Positions 2,149 through 41,061 of a DNA stretch of 41,471 nucleotides are shown in pieces (positions within the stretch are counted from its first letter, which is position 1; the number at the start of each line of letters is the position of its first letter). The stretch is from the UHGV virus genome UHGV-0125347, one strand, 5' to 3'. The position numbers and the translations under genes were made by a program. The notes under the pieces are model-generated. The model saw nothing but the letters and a program-made list of their open reading frames with translations. It had not been told where the DNA came from and did not search any database. The stretch is from a virus.

Positions 2149-2682
2149 TTAATCTAATGACAATTCAGCTTGTAATGCCTTGTATTTTGAGACAATTTCA
2201 GCTTGTTTAGTATCATAAAGAGCTGAATATGTTTTATAACTTCCTGTTGGATTAGTGGCCAGTTCTTTAAATTCTATGGCATTTAAATAAAATTCTTTAA
2301 CGCTATCAAATTCACTTTCCAAAGATTTATTCTTCATTTTTTTTAATTTTCCAAAAGTATCTTTAGCTTCATTTTCTTGATCCTTAATTTTTGCTAGGGT
2401 TCCTTCTTTAACAAATAAATCCTCTTGAGCAGCTATAGCACTATTAAAATCAGAGTAAGCTTTTCCATCAATAAATGCATATTTATCAAAGATAGCTTGG
2501 TTCCATACTTTCAGATACTTTAGTCCAACTTTGTCAGATGAAACGACTAAATCATAACTTTGTTTTGTTAATGTAGATAAAGATTCTGAGTATTCTTTAT
2601 TGCTAGAACCACATCCAGTTAGAATAAATATACCTACCATACAAACAATTACACTTAAAAGCTTTTTAAACTTTATTTTCAT
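2149..2682 (-). CDS. Prophage lipoprotein (superinfection-exclusion candidate)
   Basis: Signal peptide followed by the lipobox LTGC (MKIKFKKLLSVIVCMVGIFILTGCGSS). Located in the lysogeny module between ImmA and int. Confidence 0.8.
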   Translation of the reverse strand: MKIKFKKLLSVIVCMVGIFILTGCGSSNKEYSESLSTLTKQSYDLVVSSDKVGLKYLKVWNQAIFDKYAFIDGKAYSDFNSAIAAQEDLFVKEGTLAKIKDQENEAKDTFGKLKKMKNKSLESEFDSVKEFYLNAIEFKELATNPTGSYKTYSALYDTKQAEIVSKYKALQAELSLD

Positions 2683-2734
2683 TTTTAAAACTCCCCATTT
2701 CTGATATAATGTATTTATTGAATAATTCTCATAA

Positions 2735-2771: not shown

Positions 2772-3245
2772 TTATTGTAAATTTGTATTTAAAATCATGA
2801 CTGACAAATCATTAAACTCAAAAATTCTTCCTTTATAAAAATGGGTATCACCAAATTTTTGACGATAATAGGCGAGTACATTTTTTAGCGTTTCAACGTC
2901 TACCCCTAAAAATTCAGCGCACGTGTAATGATTACTGAATCCTGATTCTGAACACTTAATTAAATCATCTAAAGTGACTAATTGTTCTAAAGCATATTGT
3001 CTAGCTTTTAATTCTTGTTTGCGATTTTCTAAACAATCCTGGTTTAATATATCGCCAAACGAGGTATCATGGTGACCAAGTTCTTCAGCTAGCACATTTC
3101 TTTTTTCAACTAGACTCAACGATTTTTCAATATAAATTCTACCATCACGGTACAACCCATAGCATCCAGTATTTTGAAACAAATCTGTTTCAATAACTGG
3201 TGCTTTTTTCTGTACCTCTGACACCAACAGTTCATATTCGTTCAT
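2772..3245 (-). CDS. ImmA/IrrE-family (DUF955-like) metallopeptidase, partner of the repressor
   Basis: Contains AEELGHH (an HEXXH-like zinc-peptidase motif). Sits immediately downstream of the XRE repressor. The preferred start is ATG at 3245 (MNEYELL..) with an AGGAGT RBS directly after the repressor stop at 3262, rather than the track start at 3329. Confidence 0.72.
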   Translation of the reverse strand: MNEYELLVSEVQKKAPVIETDLFQNTGCYGLYRDGRIYIEKSLSLVEKRNVLAEELGHHDTSFGDILNQDCLENRKQELKARQYALEQLVTLDDLIKCSESGFSNHYTCAEFLGVDVETLKNVLAYYRQKFGDTHFYKGRIFEFNDLSVMILNTNLQ

Positions 3246-3261
3246 AAAATACTCCTGAAAA

Positions 3262-3792
3262 TTATTCTTTATCATCTGATTCATCAAAAAGATGTTTACA
3301 TTCTTTTTGCTTTCTATCATAATCAGCATCCACTTTATCTAGAAATTGATTAATGTTAAGTTTCTCTTCATCAGTAAATACTTTATCAGGATCTGGTGAA
3401 TGCGCAGCTAAAGTATCATATTTTTTCTTGTTAATGTTAACCACATTATTAGAAATTTTGTTTTGTTGTACTAATTGTTCTTTCGCAGTATCATATACAA
3501 TTTTTTGTCTTTCTGGTTCTAATTGATTATATGTTTCTTCTATAGAAGAAACAGGTTTAATATTTTTTTCAATCCCAAGCATATAGTCTGTAGATATATT
3601 AAATATTTCAGCAAGTAATTTAAGCTCTTTTCCTCTAGGGAGACTATCACCACTTTCCCATTTTGAGACAGTTGTATAATTTTTATATCCTAACATCTCT
3701 GCCAGTTCAGTTTGAGTTAGATTTTTTGTTTCACGTAAGTTTTTCAGTCTTTGAGCAAAGATAGTACCATGTGTATCTTTCATTAAGTTCAC
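3262..3792 (-). CDS. XRE-family HTH repressor (CI-like)
   Basis: HTH_3 signature LTQTELAEMLGYKNYTTVSKWESGDSLP. Divergent from a Cro-like gene and sits first in the int-proximal operon. RBS GCGAGGTGA. Confidence 0.85.
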   Translation of the reverse strand: MNLMKDTHGTIFAQRLKNLRETKNLTQTELAEMLGYKNYTTVSKWESGDSLPRGKELKLLAEIFNISTDYMLGIEKNIKPVSSIEETYNQLEPERQKIVYDTAKEQLVQQNKISNNVVNINKKKYDTLAAHSPDPDKVFTDEEKLNINQFLDKVDADYDRKQKECKHLFDESDDKE

Positions 3793-3955
3793 CTCGCTTT
3801 CATGATTACAGTATATCCTTAGTATGAATTAAAATCAACATATAATATATAGAAAACACTATAAAATAAAAAAATATGAAAATAATTCATAAAACGTTTG
3901 ACTATGAATTTAATTCATGTTAGGATGTTTTTGTAAACAAAAGGAGGTGAGAAAA
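3793..3955. promoter_or_regulatory. Divergent early promoter / operator region
   Basis: Minus-strand promoter TTGATT-17-TATACT (about 3837-3809) for the repressor. Plus-strand promoter TTGACT(3897-3902)-17-TAGGAT for cro. Repeated operator-like half-sites TATGAATT/AATTCATA at about 3822-3836, 3875-3890 and 3903-3918, the last lying within the cro promoter spacer. Confidence 0.6.
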
Positions 3956-5109: not shown

Positions 5110-5215
5110 ACGATGAATGAAATCGAAAAAAAGAGCCTACCTCGTTTGCAGACGAAGTCAGGCACTAAACAAAAATTATACAAGTAAATAATAACACGGA
5201 AATAGAGAAAGTTAA

Positions 5216-7630: not shown

Positions 7631-8215
7631 ATGACACAACAATTTCAGCAAGATAGAGAACTAGGATGGGACGATACTATCCAACAAGATAATGATGGAG
7701 GTTTATTGTTAGAGCCAGGAGATTATATTTTTGAAGTAGTTAAATTCGAAAGATCTCGTTATACACCTAGAAGTGGGGATGCAAAACTTCCAGCTTGTAA
7801 TATGGCTAAATTAGAATTGAAAATCCAAACAGCTCAAGGGACAGCCATCGTCTTCAATAATTTATATTTGCATACTTCTACAGAAGGGTTATTGTCCGCT
7901 TTCTTTGCTTCAATTGGCCAAAAGAAAAAAGGAGAGCCATTACAAATGAATTGGACTTTAGTTCCTGGATCAAAAGGTGCAGTGAAAATTAAACATCGTT
8001 CATATAATAACAACACATACAACGATGTAGATCGTTTCTATCCAAGTGACGACAGCTACTATCAAACAAAAGAAATGCCTGAGATTGTTAAACAGTTACA
8101 ACAGCCAATTCAAGGAACTCAACCAGGAATGCCACAACAAAACAATTGGCAAGCACCACAGGCACCACATCCAGCTCAACAGCCAACTCAGGGATATCAA
8201 CCAGGAGCATTTTAG
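7631..8215 (+). CDS. Putative phage ssDNA-binding protein (DUF669-like position) with a Q/P-rich C-terminal tail
   Basis: Immediately follows the Sak4-like gene. The C-terminus ends ...GYQPGAF. Confidence 0.45.
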   Translation: MTQQFQQDRELGWDDTIQQDNDGGLLLEPGDYIFEVVKFERSRYTPRSGDAKLPACNMAKLELKIQTAQGTAIVFNNLYLHTSTEGLLSAFFASIGQKKKGEPLQMNWTLVPGSKGAVKIKHRSYNNNTYNDVDRFYPSDDSYYQTKEMPEIVKQLQQPIQGTQPGMPQQNNWQAPQAPHPAQQPTQGYQPGAF

Positions 8216-8226
8216 GAGAAACAGTT

Positions 8227-8460
8227 ATGGATAAAACAAGAAAAATTAATTTTACTGGAGGATTTGTGGAACTTTTTGTTCCGCTTCCGCCAGTATATGA
8301 ACAAGGGTGTTGGAAAATGAGAGTTATTGGAAAGATTACAGCTTCTGATGAAACTACAAAAGCCGAAGGAAGAAAAATCCTAATAAATAAAGGATTTACA
8401 ACTAACGGCAATAAGGCAAACGAATTTTATAAAACGGTTATTCTTTTGGACGATTTGTAA
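8227..8460 (+). CDS. Hypothetical protein
   Basis: ATG at 8227 after AGGAGA (MDKTRKINFTGG...). The track's 8146 start lies in an overlap. Confidence 0.5.
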   Translation: MDKTRKINFTGGFVELFVPLPPVYEQGCWKMRVIGKITASDETTKAEGRKILINKGFTTNGNKANEFYKTVILLDDL

Positions 8461-9166
8461 ATTCAAGTGCTTCTTCAACTTTCAATTCAGCTGAAATGAA
8501 AAGAGCTGCAGCTGTTAAAAAATCTTTCATATCTTGAATATCTTTATCATTGTGTACTCGAATAAAATGAGTTTCATCATTTCCAATCCAAACAGCAGCT
8601 TTTGCAAGAGTTTGGATTTTAGGAAACTCTGATAGATTTTCATTAATGACTTTTCCTAAAAACTTAGATTTTACTTCTTCTGAAGAATCAGGATTTTGAT
8701 AAATAACATATTCTTTTATCAAGAATTCTATAGATTTTCTAAAGCCTACACCAGCTATTTTATTGAGACCTTGTGATTCGGCTTCCAGAGATTGCTCGTA
8801 AATATCTTTAAATTCAGGAAAAGTATTATTTACAACTGCTGGAAGTGTGTTTTCGAGTTTAACACGATACGTATAAGGAATTTTATCTGCAACCTTTGTA
8901 ATGGTAGAACTATCACTAGTATATTTCTCAAAAGGAAATTCTTGAATATGAAATTTATTACATTCACTTCGTGAACACTTAAGAAAAAGTGCTACAGAAT
9001 TATTCTTATTATCGAATAGTTTTGAAGCCATTGTTTCATACAAAATATGGGCACCAGGTTTACCGCAATGTGGACAAAATTCATCTAAGTCAAATTCTGC
9101 TTTAGAAAGAGTTGTAGTTGATGGATATTTAATGGTGATATTTCTTTTCAAATTAAAGACCTCCAT
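8438..9166 (-). CDS. Zn-ribbon + DUF4145-like (Abi/HEPN-like C-terminal) protein; antisense moron
   Basis: 242 aa on the strand opposite to the whole early module. N-terminal C-x2-C...C-x4-C ribbon (CPHCGK...CSRSECNK). The C-terminal helical domain (AGVGFRKSIEFLIKEY...WIGNDETHF) recalls DUF4145-type domains. Has its own extended -10 (TGATATAAT, revcomp of about 9177-9185) 13 nt before the ATG and no SD. Confidence 0.7.
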   Translation of the reverse strand: MEVFNLKRNITIKYPSTTTLSKAEFDLDEFCPHCGKPGAHILYETMASKLFDNKNNSVALFLKCSRSECNKFHIQEFPFEKYTSDSSTITKVADKIPYTYRVKLENTLPAVVNNTFPEFKDIYEQSLEAESQGLNKIAGVGFRKSIEFLIKEYVIYQNPDSSEEVKSKFLGKVINENLSEFPKIQTLAKAAVWIGNDETHFIRVHNDKDIQDMKDFLTAAALFISAELKVEEALEFTNRPKE

Positions 9167-9207
9167 GAGTTTTTATCTAATTATATCAATAAAGAAAGGA
9201 GAAATCT

Positions 9208-10812
9208 ATGGAACTTAGACCATATCAAAGAGAGGCTCGTTCTGCTGTTCAAAATGAATGGCAGAATAACAAAAAGAAAACATTATTAGTTTTGCCTACA
9301 GGCTGTGGGAAAACGATAGTATTTAGCAAAATCATTGAAGACCGTGTAAGGGCAGGCGAGCGTGTGCTCGTCCTTGCTCATCGTGGTGAATTATTAGATC
9401 AAGCCTCTGACAAATTAGAAAAGTCAACAGGGCTAAAAACAGCAACTGAAAAAGCAGAACAGACTAGTCTAGGCAGTTTTTTAAGAGTAGTTGTTGGTTC
9501 TGTGCAAACTATGCAACGAGAAAAACGTTTAAGTAAGTTTCCACCAGATTATTTTGACACTATAGTAGTCGATGAAGCTCACCACTGTATCAGTGAAGGA
9601 TACCAACGAGTATTAAAACACTTTGATGAATCGAATGTGTTAGGCGTAACCGCAACGCCAGATCGTGGAGACATGAGAAATTTAGGTTCTTATTTTGAAA
9701 GTTTAGCTTATGAATATTCGTTAGTACAAGCCATTAAAGAAGGCTATTTATCACCAATAAAGGCCCTAACTATTCCTTTAAAATTAGATTTATCAGGTGT
9801 AAAACAGCAAACTGGCGATTTCTCTACTAAAGATTTAGGAACGGCATTAGATCCATACTTGGAACAAATTGCTGAAGAAATGGTTAAACACTGCATAAAC
9901 AGGAAAACAGTTGTTTTTTTACCATTAGTTAAAACTTCCAAGAAATTTAGAGATATTTTAAATAGTAAAGGTTTTAGAGCTGCAGAAGTAAATGGAGATT
10001 CAAAGGATCGTCAAGAAATTTTAGAAGATTTCGACAATGACAAATATAACGTACTCTGTAACTCAATGTTACTAACAGAAGGCTGGGATTGTCCTTCGGT
10101 GGATTGTGTAGTCGTTTTAAGACCAACAAAAGTTCGATCCTTATATTCTCAAATGATAGGACGTGGCACACGTTTATTTCCTGGAAAGGAAGAATTATTG
10201 CTTTTAGATTTTTTATGGCACACAGAAAGACATGAGCTATGCCATCCAGCGCATTTGATAGCAAATAGTGATGAAGTAGCTAAAAAAATGACTGAAAACA
10301 TTGAAGAAGCAGGTGCTCAAGGTTTCGCTATGGATATTGAAGAAGCTGAAGTTCAAGCAGAAAAAGATGTTATTGCAGAAAGAGAAGAAGCATTAGCAAA
10401 GCAGCTTGAAGAAATGCGTAAGCGTAAACGAAAATTAGTTGATCCTCTTCAATTTGAAATGTCTATCCAAGCGGAAGATTTAACAGGTTATGTTCCTAGT
10501 TTTGGATGGGAAATGGGGCCGCCTTCAAGTCAACAAGTTTCAGCATTAGAAAAATTAGGAATATTACCAGATGCAATTGATAACGCTGGTAAAGCTAGTC
10601 TAATACTTGATCGATTACAAAAAAGAAAAGAAGCTGGGTTGGCAACACCTAAGCAAATCAGATTATTGGAACAACGTGGATTTAAGAATGTCGGTACATG
10701 GTCCTTTGATGGTGCAAGTAAAATGATTAATCGCATTGCTGCAAATGGATGGAGATTACCAAATGGTATTAATCCAAAAACATATCAAGAAGGTGGTACG
10801 CATGCCGTTTAA
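9208..10812 (+). CDS. SF2 DEAD/DEAH-box DNA helicase
   Basis: Walker A LPTGCGKT, DEAH box VVDEAHH and helicase C motifs (LLTEGWDCP, QMIGRGTR). RBS AAAGGAG. Confidence 0.9.
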   Translation: MELRPYQREARSAVQNEWQNNKKKTLLVLPTGCGKTIVFSKIIEDRVRAGERVLVLAHRGELLDQASDKLEKSTGLKTATEKAEQTSLGSFLRVVVGSVQTMQREKRLSKFPPDYFDTIVVDEAHHCISEGYQRVLKHFDESNVLGVTATPDRGDMRNLGSYFESLAYEYSLVQAIKEGYLSPIKALTIPLKLDLSGVKQQTGDFSTKDLGTALDPYLEQIAEEMVKHCINRKTVVFLPLVKTSKKFRDILNSKGFRAAEVNGDSKDRQEILEDFDNDKYNVLCNSMLLTEGWDCPSVDCVVVLRPTKVRSLYSQMIGRGTRLFPGKEELLLLDFLWHTERHELCHPAHLIANSDEVAKKMTENIEEAGAQGFAMDIEEAEVQAEKDVIAEREEALAKQLEEMRKRKRKLVDPLQFEMSIQAEDLTGYVPSFGWEMGPPSSQQVSALEKLGILPDAIDNAGKASLILDRLQKRKEAGLATPKQIRLLEQRGFKNVGTWSFDGASKMINRIAANGWRLPNGINPKTYQEGGTHAV

Positions 10813-11128
10813 AAACAAACAAATTGAACGGTTAGTTTATATAGTAGAAAACATTCCTGATTGGGAAAATAATCCTACACTTGTTGAAGAGGTAAAAAAG
10901 CTACGTAAGCCTTCACAAGAAGGCATTCATAAGTCGAAGACCAGAATAAGAAACAGGGCAATGGCAAGATATCGTTTATATGAAAATGGTAGTTATGTTA
11001 CTACCCAGTCTATTAATATGCTATCGGAATACACTGGTCTTTCAGAAATATCATTATATCAAATGCTGGATGTTGAGAGAGTAAACCGTGATGGTGTGCG
11101 TAGAAAAATTGAAAGATTGAAAAATTAA
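10802..11128 (+). CDS. Hypothetical protein (possible HTH)
   Basis: ATG at 10802 overlapping the helicase stop. 108 aa. Confidence 0.5.
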   Translation: MPFKNKQIERLVYIVENIPDWENNPTLVEEVKKLRKPSQEGIHKSKTRIRNRAMARYRLYENGSYVTTQSINMLSEYTGLSEISLYQMLDVERVNRDGVRRKIERLKN

Positions 11129-39741: not shown

Positions 39742-41061
39742 TTACTTTACTCCAGTTATTGAGTTTACCCTGTAATAATTTGACATCCATGAATTAAACC
39801 AAGAGTTTTTATCGGTAGATAAATAGGTAGTACCATTATATGGGCTTATAAGGGTGTGAGAAGGAGTTAGAAGGTGCAAATTTACATTCGAATTTTTATC
39901 TGCTTTGTTTATTGTTTCAATTTGAATATTGACTTCTTTGTAGTTCTTTAATATGTCACTAAAACCATAAATATAAGTGATAAGTGAAATGAGCGTTAAT
40001 GCAATTAAAAGATAGCTTTTTAAATTAGTATATTTATGCACGCTATTAAATAGATAAACAATTATTATAATTATGAAAATTGCTGGACCAAAAAAAGTTC
40101 TTAGGGGCGCAGAAGGTGAAACTATTAAACTAAATATTCCAGCAATATGGCCAATAAACAGTATTCCAGTAAATATAAAATCGCATTTAGTAATTTTTTT
40201 CTGATATATAAGAATAAACATCAATGAAAATACTATTAAATATGCAAAGAAAAAATGACTTACGCTTGTTGAATAAATAGAAATAGCATGGTCTTTAAGT
40301 AGATTAAAGCTTAAATCAATGGCCCCTCTTTTTTGTGATCCTGGTGATTTCATCATTATTATAAACCCTATACCGGAACTAACAACTCCTATTAACCTCC
40401 AAATGTCTAATGACTTGGTCTCTATATATTTCCATATTATTAGTAATACAATAATTAAAGTAGTTGCTGGTCCAGAATTCTCATTTGTTGCTCCGGATAG
40501 AAACCCAAGAATGATGGAGCTAGTAATTGTAAAAATATTGGTTTGAAAACTTTGTAAATTGAATAGTAAAAAAGAAGAATAAATAAGGGCCATCCATAGA
40601 TAATTTCCAGAACCAGAGAGCCATAAAACACTTTTACCAAAGTCAGGTATAAAAAGCCAAAGCAATAAAAAAATCAGTAAAAATATGCTAGTGCTATTAC
40701 GAATATTTTTTACTGTATTTGTTATTAAGTAAATCATGATTCCAAGAGATAAGAAAGCAATACTATTAAAAATGTTAAAGTAGAATTTATTAAATTGCAT
40801 AAAGAATTGAACGATCGAATGAGCTACGAATCTGCCATTCCAAATATGATAGTGGGATACTTGAGATTTAAATATACTTCTAAATCCATTAATTTTTTCA
40901 AGAGGTTGTGTGGGCATAGATGATTTGTAAACAAAGCGATAAGCATAGTCATCTGAAACATAATAGGTCATATGATTTAAAATAAACAATAGTAAAAAGA
41001 AAATTAAAAAAATAAATAAAACGAAGAAATTTTTTTTCTTAAATGAGTAGTTTGATAACAT
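39742..41061 (-). CDS. Polytopic membrane protein (Wzy/EpsG/Gtr-like; lysogenic-conversion candidate)
   Basis: 439 aa with about 10-12 TM helices. Extremely AT-rich relative to the rest of the window. RBS AAGGAGA. Confidence 0.75.
   Translation of the reverse strand: MLSNYSFKKKNFFVLFIFLIFFLLLFILNHMTYYVSDDYAYRFVYKSSMPTQPLEKINGFRSIFKSQVSHYHIWNGRFVAHSIVQFFMQFNKFYFNIFNSIAFLSLGIMIYLITNTVKNIRNSTSIFLLIFLLLWLFIPDFGKSVLWLSGSGNYLWMALIYSSFLLFNLQSFQTNIFTITSSIILGFLSGATNENSGPATTLIIVLLIIWKYIETKSLDIWRLIGVVSSGIGFIIMMKSPGSQKRGAIDLSFNLLKDHAISIYSTSVSHFFFAYLIVFSLMFILIYQKKITKCDFIFTGILFIGHIAGIFSLIVSPSAPLRTFFGPAIFIIIIIVYLFNSVHKYTNLKSYLLIALTLISLITYIYGFSDILKNYKEVNIQIETINKADKNSNVNLHLLTPSHTLISPYNGTTYLSTDKNSWFNSWMSNYYRVNSITGVK

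What the first reader, a model, noticed from the sequence alone, without database searches (positions are those of the whole stretch)
8438..9210. Antisense, self-promoted Zn-ribbon/DUF4145-like gene embedded in the replication module: candidate abortive-infection or defence moron
This is a 242-aa minus-strand ORF inside an otherwise uniformly plus-strand early region. Its 3' end overlaps the convergent upstream gene by 23 nt. It has an extended -10 promoter (TGATATAAT) only 13 nt from the ATG and no Shine-Dalgarno, which implies a near-leaderless, independently expressed transcript (plausibly made in the lysogen). The protein has an N-terminal C2C2 zinc ribbon and a C-terminal all-helical domain that resembles DUF4145-type modules seen in Abi/HEPN-like defence proteins. 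A degenerate RNxxxH-like stretch (GNDETH) is present. Single-gene antisense morons in this position are frequently superinfection-immunity or Abi genes.
Basis: partly seen in the sequence, partly recalled or inferred. Interest (0 to 1): 0.8.

Follow-up and report, generated by a model that had tools for sequence, protein, structure and literature searches.

The report
Prophage zinc-ribbon HEPN defence-like gene cassette
A backward-facing gene in the replication region of an Enterococcus prophage encodes a zinc-ribbon sensor fused to an RNase-like HEPN (DUF4145) domain, the same build as the recently solved anti-phage protein RAZR, and it travels between phages as a 963-bp cassette with its own promoter and a small partner gene.

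Summary
The ORF is real, but its start was misread. The conserved start is TTG 9151 (237 aa), preceded by a GGAGG Shine-Dalgarno at 9164-9160. The gene is therefore not leaderless.

The extended -10 (TGATATAAT, 9188-9180) is conserved in homologues, including ones in unrelated phage backbones.

The family is large: 2,447 clusters at 50% identity. It spans many phyla. Some distant members sit beside CBASS, NACHT or Kiwa defence genes.

The closest characterised system is RAZR/PD-T7-4, a zinc-finger DUF4145 abortive-infection RNase. This family is not a demonstrable member of it:
- the PD-T7-4 model hits only one distant homologue (E 0.0033);
- family profiles miss the RAZR chain in the PDB;
- the position of RAZR's catalytic Arg (H-8) is never Arg here, although WIGNDETH is invariant among close relatives and GND..H is invariant across phyla.

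New here: a 963-bp mobile module (8226-9188) made of a 77-aa convergent partner gene, the HEPN gene and its promoter. The partner was never seen without the HEPN gene.

Most likely function: a lysogen-expressed abortive-infection or superinfection defence. This is inferred, not tested.

The parts
8438..9151 (-). Gene for the 237-aa zinc-ribbon + DUF4145/HEPN protein. TTG start at 9151, stop at 8438-8440. The longest ORF runs to ATG 9166.
   Evidence: ORF. Start position conserved in homologues. phrog_1305 E 4.8e-47. 318 homologues at E<=0.001. 2,447 clusters at 50% identity.
8891..9151 (-). N-terminal zinc-binding beta domain (residues 1-87 of the 237-aa protein). CPHC is at 9065-9076 and CxxxxC at 8960-8977.
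   Evidence: AF2 model shows six strands at pLDDT >85. The four Cys are invariant. Weak profile hits to RPB9/RPA12/1QYP zinc ribbons, E 0.065-0.95. This is the most variable region: 30% against 60% pairwise identity.
8840..8890 (-). Interdomain linker (residues 88-104) holding the conserved Y.Y...N.LP stretch.
   Evidence: No regular secondary structure in the AF2 model. Conserved L108/P109 in 242-aa numbering.
8441..8839 (-). C-terminal all-helical HEPN (DUF4145) domain. Invariant G-x-G-x-R-K-x-x-E-F-x-x-K in helix 1. WIGNDETH in helix 4: invariant among the 33 close homologues and W[IL]GN[DH]E[TA]H in nearly all of the wider family (GNDETH = 8567-8584).
9160..9164 (-). Shine-Dalgarno GGAGG, 8 nt upstream of TTG 9151.
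   Evidence: Sequence. Conserved as GGAGG, GGGGG or GAGG in five loci.
9180..9188 (-). Extended -10 promoter element TGATATAAT with no recognisable -35.
   Evidence: Sequence. Conserved as TGnTATA[AC]T in five loci, including a different backbone. It is the last element inside the mobile block. It was not called by the two-hexamer scan, and the motif count is not above chance.
8227..8460 (+). Convergent 77-aa partner gene (phrog_36282, function unknown). Its RBS AGGAGA is at 8214-8219. Its last 23 nt overlap the 3' end of the HEPN gene.
   Evidence: RBS and ORF. phrog_36282 E 4e-43. Only 10 homologue clusters, all enterococcal where named. In every context seen it is followed by the convergent HEPN gene. 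AF2 pLDDT 88.7, fold match inconclusive.
8226..9188 (.). Mobile two-gene cassette: partner gene, HEPN gene, SD and promoter.
   Evidence: DNA homology to loci L008/L009 (RecT/YqaJ-type backbone) spans exactly 8226-9188 at 75% identity. Homology to phage EFC-1 breaks at 8221 and 9208. L006, L090 and L091 carry the pair in addition to the EFC-1 gp15/gp16 homologues.
9152..9207 (.). 56-nt divergent intergenic region. It carries the minus-strand promoter and SD, and on the plus strand the RBS of the helicase gene (9208..10812).
   Evidence: Sequence. The helicase RBS differs from that of EFC-1, so it came with the cassette-side DNA.

Best explanation
What it is: a prophage-borne, independently promoted defence-type gene. 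The protein couples a variable four-Cys zinc-ribbon domain, the presumed sensor, to a conserved DUF4145-type HEPN domain, the presumed RNase effector.

Proposed mechanism (by analogy with RAZR/PD-T7-4):
1. In the lysogen, the gene is transcribed from its own extended -10 promoter, in the same direction as the integrase and repressor genes and antisense to the silent early lytic operon.
2. The protein is latent in the lysogen.
3. When another phage infects, the zinc domain binds a phage protein, for example an oligomeric portal or a single-strand annealing protein.
4. Binding switches on the HEPN site. RNA is then cut, translation stops and the infection aborts.
5. When the resident prophage is itself induced, early lytic transcription runs head-on through the gene and should shut it off.
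6. The 77-aa partner is made from that same early transcript. It may neutralise pre-existing protein.

Shown here: the gene, its start, promoter conservation, domain folds, family size, cassette mobility, linkage to the 77-aa gene, and the defence neighbourhoods of distant members.

Inferred: expression in the lysogen, RNase activity, the trigger, the abortive-infection outcome, and the role of the partner.
For: Architecture and fold:
- Zinc domain plus HEPN fold, model pLDDT 90.3.
- DUF4145 hits in 30 of 33 homologues.

Precedent:
- RAZR/PD-T7-4 is a zinc-finger DUF4145 abortive-infection RNase of about 220 aa. Its zinc domain is the variable specificity determinant (PMC13017515; PMC9519451).
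- Here too the zinc domain is about half as conserved as the HEPN domain.
- One distant family member (B. atrophaeus, L042) matches the PADLOC PD-T7-4 model collinearly over both domains: residues 27-221 against profile positions 15-191 of 211, E 0.0033.
- Other DUF4145 proteins act in defence: BxaP (PMC10799925) and Ishtar (bioRxiv 10.64898/2026.07.06.735840).

Moron character:
- Absent from EFC-1.
- Low GC.
- A 963-bp block including the promoter moves between backbones.
- The promoter and SD are conserved.

Orientation: the gene is on the lysogeny strand here and in streptococcal prophages.

Guilt by association:
- A Cap15 CBASS effector and a resolvase flank the Pseudomonas homologue.
- NACHT and a resolvase flank the Bacillus homologue.
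- KwaB and KwaA lie 1.7 kb from the E. hirae prophage copy.

Conservation: GND..H is invariant across phyla, and the full W[IL]GN[DH]E[TA]H motif is present in 87 of the 88 extracted members, which argues for a working site.
Against: - There are no functional data for any member of this family.
- The window protein itself scores below the Pfam gathering threshold. It has no PADLOC or NCBIfam hit.
- Family profiles do not detect the RAZR chain although 9Y6U/9Y9C are in the PDB copy. RAZR was not among the top fold hits.
- The residue eight positions before the His, where RAZR has its essential R146, is never Arg in the 87 members that carry the motif. The canonical -5 position is Gly. RNase activity is therefore uncertain.
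- PHROGs labels the family 'DNA binding protein'.
- The promoter motif is not statistically exceptional on its own. No terminator was found.
Confidence: 0.58

Rival explanations
1. It is a two-gene toxin-antitoxin or addiction module. The HEPN protein would be a toxin and the 77-aa protein its antidote. The main role would be to stabilise the prophage or the cassette, with phage defence at most a side effect.
For: - The 77-aa gene and the HEPN gene move as one 963-bp unit.
- The 77-aa gene was never seen alone: window, L005-L009 and L090-L100, with diverged versions in L010 and L011.
- The partner is better conserved than the HEPN protein: 61-68% against 42-45% identity in the most distant pairs.
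- HEPN toxins with protein antitoxins are well known; HEPN-MNT structures are among the fold hits.
Against: - The genes are convergent and on different transcripts, which is unlike type II TA operons.
- In a lysogen the putative antidote, which sits in the repressed early operon, would not be made while the toxin would be.
- Streptococcal relatives pair with an unrelated small gene (phrog_4488). At least 18 distinct streptococcal phages (26 of the 60 matching records) carry that gene without any HEPN gene. Many family members have no such neighbour.
Confidence: 0.15
2. It is a non-catalytic zinc-ribbon/HEPN-fold regulator, as in the PHROG label 'DNA binding protein'. It would act in the phage's own life cycle, for example by modulating early transcription, replication or the lysis-lysogeny decision.
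For: - PHROG annotation.
- Loss of the canonical and the RAZR-type catalytic Arg.
- Location in the replication module here, and next to the cro/cI switch in streptococcal prophages.
- Non-catalytic HEPN domains exist; sacsin and Roquin are among the fold hits.
Against: - The gene is dispensable, since EFC-1 lacks it.
- It moves between unrelated replication modules.
- It occurs outside prophages next to defence genes.
- The invariant GND..H and RK..E residues look like an active site.
- The 'DNA binding' label has no experimental basis that I could find.
Confidence: 0.12
3. It is a counter-defence or host-takeover RNase used by the phage during its own lytic growth.
For: - It is phage-encoded and has an RNase-like fold.
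- It sits among early genes.
Against: - It is antisense to the early operon, so lytic transcription should oppose its expression.
- It has its own constitutive-type promoter.
- Chromosomal relatives lie in defence islands.
Confidence: 0.05

Closest known systems
RAZR (ring-activated zinc-finger RNase; PD-T7-4, RRL46918.1; PDB 9Y6U/9Y9C; PMC13017515, PMC9519451)
   Same: - Single polypeptide of about 220-240 aa.
- N-terminal four-Cys zinc ribbon of RPB9/1QYP type, a conserved linker, and a C-terminal DUF4145-type HEPN domain.
- The zinc domain is the most variable part.
- Carried on mobile elements, and the gene overlaps its neighbour.
- A conserved His in a GN...H-type helix.
   Different: - No detectable sequence match to the RAZR chain with family profiles.
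- The PADLOC PD-T7-4 model hits only 1 of the 30 members scanned, weakly.
- The RAZR catalytic Arg position (H-8) is A/V/T/S/E/D/I here.
- The family has about 18 more residues than the profile over the aligned span, and judging from the residue numbering they lie before the His helix.
- This copy sits inside a Gram-positive prophage, antisense to early genes, and is linked to a 77-aa partner. RAZR is described as a single-gene system.
- Ring-triggered activation is untested here.
Pfam DUF4145 (PF13643), a HEPN-superfamily family (Anantharaman et al. 2013, PMC3710099)
   Same: - Helical domain with R..E in the first helix and GN...H in the catalytic helix.
- Fusion to zinc ribbons is listed for this family.
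- Found in bacteria and dsDNA viruses.
- NCBI names several homologues 'DUF4145 domain-containing protein'.
   Different: - The window protein scores 20.5 bits, below the 23.1 gathering cut-off.
- It belongs to the minority of the family without the conserved Arg of the R...H motif. That paper gives the motif as about 80% conserved.
BxaP (BREX-associated abortive-infection protein with an N-terminal DUF4145; PMC10799925) and Ishtar (anti-plasmid proteins with an N-terminal DUF4145/DUF3644 HEPN; bioRxiv 10.64898/2026.07.06.735840)
   Same: A DUF4145-type HEPN effector in experimentally supported defence proteins.
   Different: - Different partner domains: a HEAT-like domain or a beta-rich C-terminal domain instead of an N-terminal zinc ribbon.
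- Different domain order and different genomic context.
Prophage exclusion and abortive-infection morons expressed in the lysogen (general class; established knowledge, not tested here)
   Same: - An accessory gene with its own promoter.
- Lower GC than the flanks.
- Present or absent among otherwise near-identical phages.
- Oriented with the lysogeny genes.
   Different: - It sits deep inside the replication module rather than at the integrase-repressor or lysis-attachment ends.
- It moves together with a convergent, overlapping small gene of the lytic strand.

Membership tests
Pfam DUF4145 / HEPN superfamily | Significant match to the PF13643 profile | tested here: inconclusive
   Window protein: E 5e-4, 20.5 bits against a 23.1 cut-off, covering HMM positions 13-87 of 88. 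30 of 33 homologues match at E<=0.01, best 1.1e-5. NCBI annotates several homologues as DUF4145.
Pfam DUF4145 / HEPN superfamily | Four-helix up-down HEPN fold | tested here: met
Pfam DUF4145 / HEPN superfamily | Rx4-6H catalytic motif (Arg and His on the same helix) | tested here: not met
   The His is invariant across the curated alignments. The -5 position is Gly and the -8 position is never Arg in the 87 members that carry the motif. Other basic residues are conserved nearby in sequence: invariant R138/K139 in helix 1, and mostly R/K at H+3. Their position in space was not measured.
RAZR / PD-T7-4 | Architecture: N-terminal Cys4 zinc ribbon, linker, C-terminal DUF4145 HEPN, about 220 aa | tested here: met
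   (weak RPB9/1QYP zinc-ribbon matches, the same template used for RAZR in PMC13017515).
RAZR / PD-T7-4 | Sequence homology to PD-T7-4 (PADLOC model PDLC04109) or to the RAZR chain of 9Y6U/9Y9C | tested here: not met
   - No PD-T7-4 hit for the window protein at E<=1.
- One of the 30 distant members scanned hits it, at E 0.0033 and collinear over both domains.
- Profiles A1 and A3 find no RAZR chain at E<=10, although Gp77 of the same entries is found.
- I could not obtain the RAZR sequence for a direct profile-profile comparison.
RAZR / PD-T7-4 | Catalytic pair R146/H154 (Arg eight residues before His), both essential for defence | tested here: not met
   His present (H195 of the 237-aa protein). 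The residue at H-8 is Val in the window protein and A/V/T/S/E/D/I across the family. The equivalence of H195 to H154 is inferred from alignment offsets.
RAZR / PD-T7-4 | Zinc domain is the most variable region and sets specificity | tested here: met
   Variability is met: 30% against 60% (close set) and 21% against 45% (distant set) mean pairwise identity. Specificity is not testable here.
RAZR / PD-T7-4 | Activation by assembly around phage ring proteins, non-specific ssRNA cleavage, abortive infection | not testable with these tools
   This needs phage assays, biochemistry and cryo-EM.
Type II toxin-antitoxin module | Toxin and antitoxin co-transcribed in one operon; antitoxin made whenever the toxin is made | tested here: not met
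   The two genes are convergent with a 23-nt 3' overlap and lie on different transcripts.

The most novel reading that the evidence does not exclude
The enterococcal cassette would be a prophage-adapted, two-component version of a RAZR-like sensor-RNase.
- The HEPN protein, which would use an Arg-less GNDETH site, guards the lysogen.
- The tightly linked 77-aa protein is made only from the early lytic transcript that also runs antisense through the HEPN gene. It would be a dedicated self-immunity factor.
- This factor would stop the prophage's own ring-forming proteins (SPP1-type portal, annealing proteins) from triggering suicide during induction.

Probability: 0.2. Interest if true: 0.7.

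Novelty: new variant of a known kind. Interest (0 to 1): 0.45.

Why it matters
RAZR showed that a zinc-finger HEPN protein can sense the geometry of phage protein rings. This family has at least 2,447 clusters at 50% identity. It is common in prophages of enterococci and streptococci and is scattered across phyla. It has the same build, but it lacks the Arg that RAZR needs, and it has never been tested.

Three questions follow:
- If it is active, it broadens what counts as a working HEPN site.
- If it defends, it is a widespread prophage-encoded barrier relevant to phage therapy against Enterococcus faecalis.
- A prophage carrying such a sensor must avoid setting it off with its own portal. 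The antisense placement and the co-mobile 77-aa gene offer a concrete, testable answer.

Tried and rejected
- NCBIfam gave no hit.
- PADLOC gave only a spurious Cas10 match for the window protein.
- Sequence searches of the PDB with the protein, with two family profiles, with the Bacillus member and with a Serratia DUF4145 protein never reached RAZR. I could therefore not obtain the RAZR sequence for a direct comparison. No supplement text was held for the RAZR paper.
- The two-hexamer promoter scan did not call the promoter, and no terminator was found.
- A weak hairpin downstream of the stop codon (about 8372-8396) is not better than shuffles, z = -1.0.
- The Rfam scan found nothing in the cassette.
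- I tested whether all family members have a homologous convergent partner. There are three unrelated partner families (phrog_36282, phrog_4488, phrog_14088). The streptococcal partner occurs in at least 18 distinct phages without the HEPN gene. phrog_14088 relatives also occur apart from it. A universal two-gene system is therefore rejected. Only the enterococcal linkage stands.
- Gene orientation around the 80 wider family members is mixed, so antisense embedding is not a family-wide rule.
I could therefore not measure whether R138 lies near H195.
Full report
**The window.** The sequence is a temperate Enterococcus faecalis phage of the phiFC1/EFC-1 type.
- Bases 1-1687 are 98% identical to the phiFC1 integrase/attP record. 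About two thirds of the first 25 kb match phage EFC-1 at 97.6%.
- The left end carries minus-strand lysogeny genes: a serine integrase (262-1656), an ImmA/IrrE-type peptidase (2772-3329) and an XRE repressor (to 3792). The plus-strand early operon starts at 3917.
- That operon encodes an SMC-like ATPase, a Sak4-type AAA_24 protein, a DUF669 protein, a helicase and a primase. Further on there is an SPP1-type portal.

**The observation.** A minus-strand ORF at 8438-9166 exists.
- It overlaps a plus-strand gene by 23 nt. It has TGATATAAT 13 nt upstream of its first ATG.
- The claim of a near-leaderless message without a Shine-Dalgarno does not hold. A perfect GGAGG lies at 9164-9160, 8 nt before a TTG at 9151.
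- In an alignment of upstream regions from five loci, the start codon falls exactly at that position (TTG in two loci, ATG in two). The G-rich SD is kept. In L005 the upstream ATG is missing and the frame is broken.
- Gene callers give 236-237 aa for all close homologues. The gene is therefore 8438-9151, 237 aa.
- The extended -10 is conserved as TGnTATA[AC]T in all five loci. The motif occurs 3 times in the window against 3.55 expected, so only its conserved position gives it weight.
- No -35 hexamer and no terminator were detected. A weak hairpin after the stop codon is not significant.

**The protein.**
- Pfam gives DUF4145 at E 5e-4, 20.5 bits, just under the 23.1 cut-off. Thirty of 33 homologues match DUF4145. 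PHROGs places the protein in phrog_1305, labelled 'DNA binding protein', at E 4.8e-47.
- An AlphaFold2 model built on 33 sequences has pLDDT 90.3. It shows a six-stranded N-terminal domain holding the four invariant cysteines, a linker, and a helical C-terminal domain.
- A profile of distant members weakly matches RPB9/RPA12-type zinc ribbons, including 1QYP.
- Across 88 extracted homologues the helix-1 motif G-x-G-[YFL]-R-K-x-x-E is present throughout, and the helix-4 motif W-[IL]-G-N-[DH]-E-[TA]-H is present in 87 of them.

**Family and distribution.**
- A search of 1.84 billion cluster representatives finds 2,447 at E<=0.001, nearly all 220-250 aa and matched end to end.
- A scan of one genome per species finds 379 species with relatives. 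They are mostly Bacillota, but also include Pseudomonas, Desulfosarcina, Chloroflexi, Bacteroidota, Planctomycetota and Patescibacteria.
- In streptococcal prophages the gene lies just beyond cro. It is antisense to the early genes and on the strand of the repressor and integrase.
- Outside prophages, the Pseudomonas copy sits between a Cap15 CBASS effector, a DUF6602 protein and a resolvase. The Bacillus atrophaeus copy sits next to a NACHT protein and a resolvase. An E. hirae prophage copy lies 1.7 kb from KwaB/KwaA.

**A mobile cassette.**
- Homology to EFC-1 stops at 8221 and resumes at 9208. EFC-1 has two unrelated plus-strand genes there, gp15 and gp16.
- Other enterococcal prophages carry gp15/gp16 homologues and the pair together. 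The pair is therefore an insertion, not an allele.
- Against a prophage with a completely different replication module (RecT/YqaJ), DNA homology spans exactly 8226-9188. That runs from the start codon of the 77-aa gene to the -10 element.
- GC falls to 0.30-0.31 over the gene, against 0.35-0.40 in the flanks.
- The 77-aa gene has a good RBS, belongs to phrog_36282, and has only ten homologue clusters.
- In every context examined it is followed by the convergent HEPN gene. These contexts span at least four backbones. The HEPN protein has diverged to 42-45% identity where the partner is still 61-68% identical.

**Limits of the partner idea.**
- Streptococcal copies overlap an unrelated 42-45-aa gene (phrog_4488). 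Many clostridial and staphylococcal copies overlap a third family, phrog_14088.
- phrog_4488 is present in at least 18 distinct streptococcal phages (26 of the 60 matching records) that lack the HEPN gene. Nothing antisense sits beside it there. phrog_14088 relatives also occur apart from the HEPN gene.
- The overlap is therefore a recurrent way in which this gene is inserted against small early genes. PD-T7-4 homologues are likewise reported to overlap an integrase gene.
- Only the enterococcal 77-aa gene is demonstrably co-mobile.

**Comparison with what is known.**
- DUF4145 was assigned to the HEPN superfamily in 2013, with zinc-ribbon fusions noted (PMC3710099).
- PD-T7-4, a 'Zn finger-HEPN' protein of about 220 aa, was found in a functional screen (PMC9519451).
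- It was then characterised as RAZR. The zinc domain binds ring-shaped phage proteins (an Erf-like annealing protein and portals). The protein polymerises around the ring. The DUF4145/HEPN site (R146, H154) cleaves single-stranded RNA and the infection aborts. The zinc domain is the variable specificity determinant (PMC13017515).
- The present family shares the architecture, size, fold class and variability pattern: zinc domain 30% against HEPN 60% identity.
- Membership is not shown. The PD-T7-4 model misses the window protein and hits one distant member at E 0.0033, though collinearly over both domains. Family profiles do not find the RAZR chain, which is present in the PDB copy. The residue eight positions before the His is never Arg.
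- I therefore file it as a distinct zinc-ribbon DUF4145 family that probably works like RAZR.
- Other DUF4145 defence proteins, BxaP and Ishtar, show that the domain is used repeatedly in immunity.

**Mechanism proposed, with its status.**
- *Shown:* an independently promoted, horizontally mobile accessory gene on the lysogeny strand, encoding a sensor-like variable zinc domain and a conserved HEPN domain.
- *Inferred:* expression in the lysogen; activation by a protein of an incoming phage; RNA cleavage and abortive infection; silencing by head-on early transcription on induction; a protective role for the 77-aa protein.
- The missing Arg is the main reason for caution. The extreme conservation of GNDETH, and of R138/K139/E142 in helix 1, suggests a relocated basic residue rather than a dead site.

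**Verdict.**
The defence function is plausible by close analogy but untested.
- Relative to the 2026 RAZR work this is a new variant, not a new kind. Two specific, testable additions are an Arg-less invariant site and a co-mobile partner gene.

Noticed in passing
window 5127-5180 (-): Rfam Ref55 (Enterococcus sRNA 55) matches at 43.6 bits, just above its gathering score of 43. It lies in the gap upstream of the SMC-like ATPase gene and is antisense to the early operon.
   Followed up: no
window 39742-41061 (-): A 439-aa minus-strand gene at the far right end of the window is a full-length DUF6056 protein (E 7e-114). It may be another accessory gene at the prophage end, or a flanking host gene.
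   Followed up: no
window 2149-2682 (-): A 177-aa gene of unknown function (phrog_24226) sits between the serine integrase and the ImmA/XRE pair. This is a classic slot for lysogen-expressed accessory genes.
   Followed up: no
window 10814-11128 (+): A small early protein (phrog_12808) has a weak match to phrog_803, 'host nuclease inhibitor' (E 0.001).
   Followed up: no
window 2702-2710 (+) and 11053-11061 (-): Two further exact TGATATAAT motifs occur in the window. Both are antisense to the local genes. The total count is what chance predicts.
   Followed up: partly
L094 6164-7231 (E. hirae prophage): KwaB (27.8 bits, cut-off 26.3) and a weak KwaA hit lie 1.7 kb from the zinc-ribbon HEPN pair in the same prophage. 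This suggests a small defence cluster inside the early region.
   Followed up: partly
L080 2674-8381 (Pseudomonas nitroreducens) and L042 2866-5498 (Bacillus atrophaeus): Chromosomal relatives are flanked by a Cap15 CBASS effector, DUF6602 and a resolvase (L080), and by a NACHT protein and a resolvase (L042).
   Followed up: partly
L001 3629-4811 (phage EFC-1 gp15, gp16): The slot between the DUF669 gene and the helicase gene holds different cargo in close relatives. EFC-1 has a 'replication terminator' (phrog_997) and a phrog_1029 protein. Some prophages carry these plus the HEPN pair.
   Followed up: partly
L104 2474-3217 (Serratia nevei plasmid pSNEVa): A 247-aa zinc-ribbon DUF4145 protein reads K-W-L-G-N-T-G-S-H, so it has Lys at the position where RAZR has Arg. 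It lies next to umuD and an SOS-response peptidase gene.
   Followed up: no
window 8350-8445 (-) / 8372-8396: An AT-rich hairpin followed by a T run lies 45-65 nt after the HEPN gene's stop codon, inside the most conserved codons of the 77-aa gene (GRKILINKGFTT). It does not fold better than shuffled sequence.
   Followed up: yes
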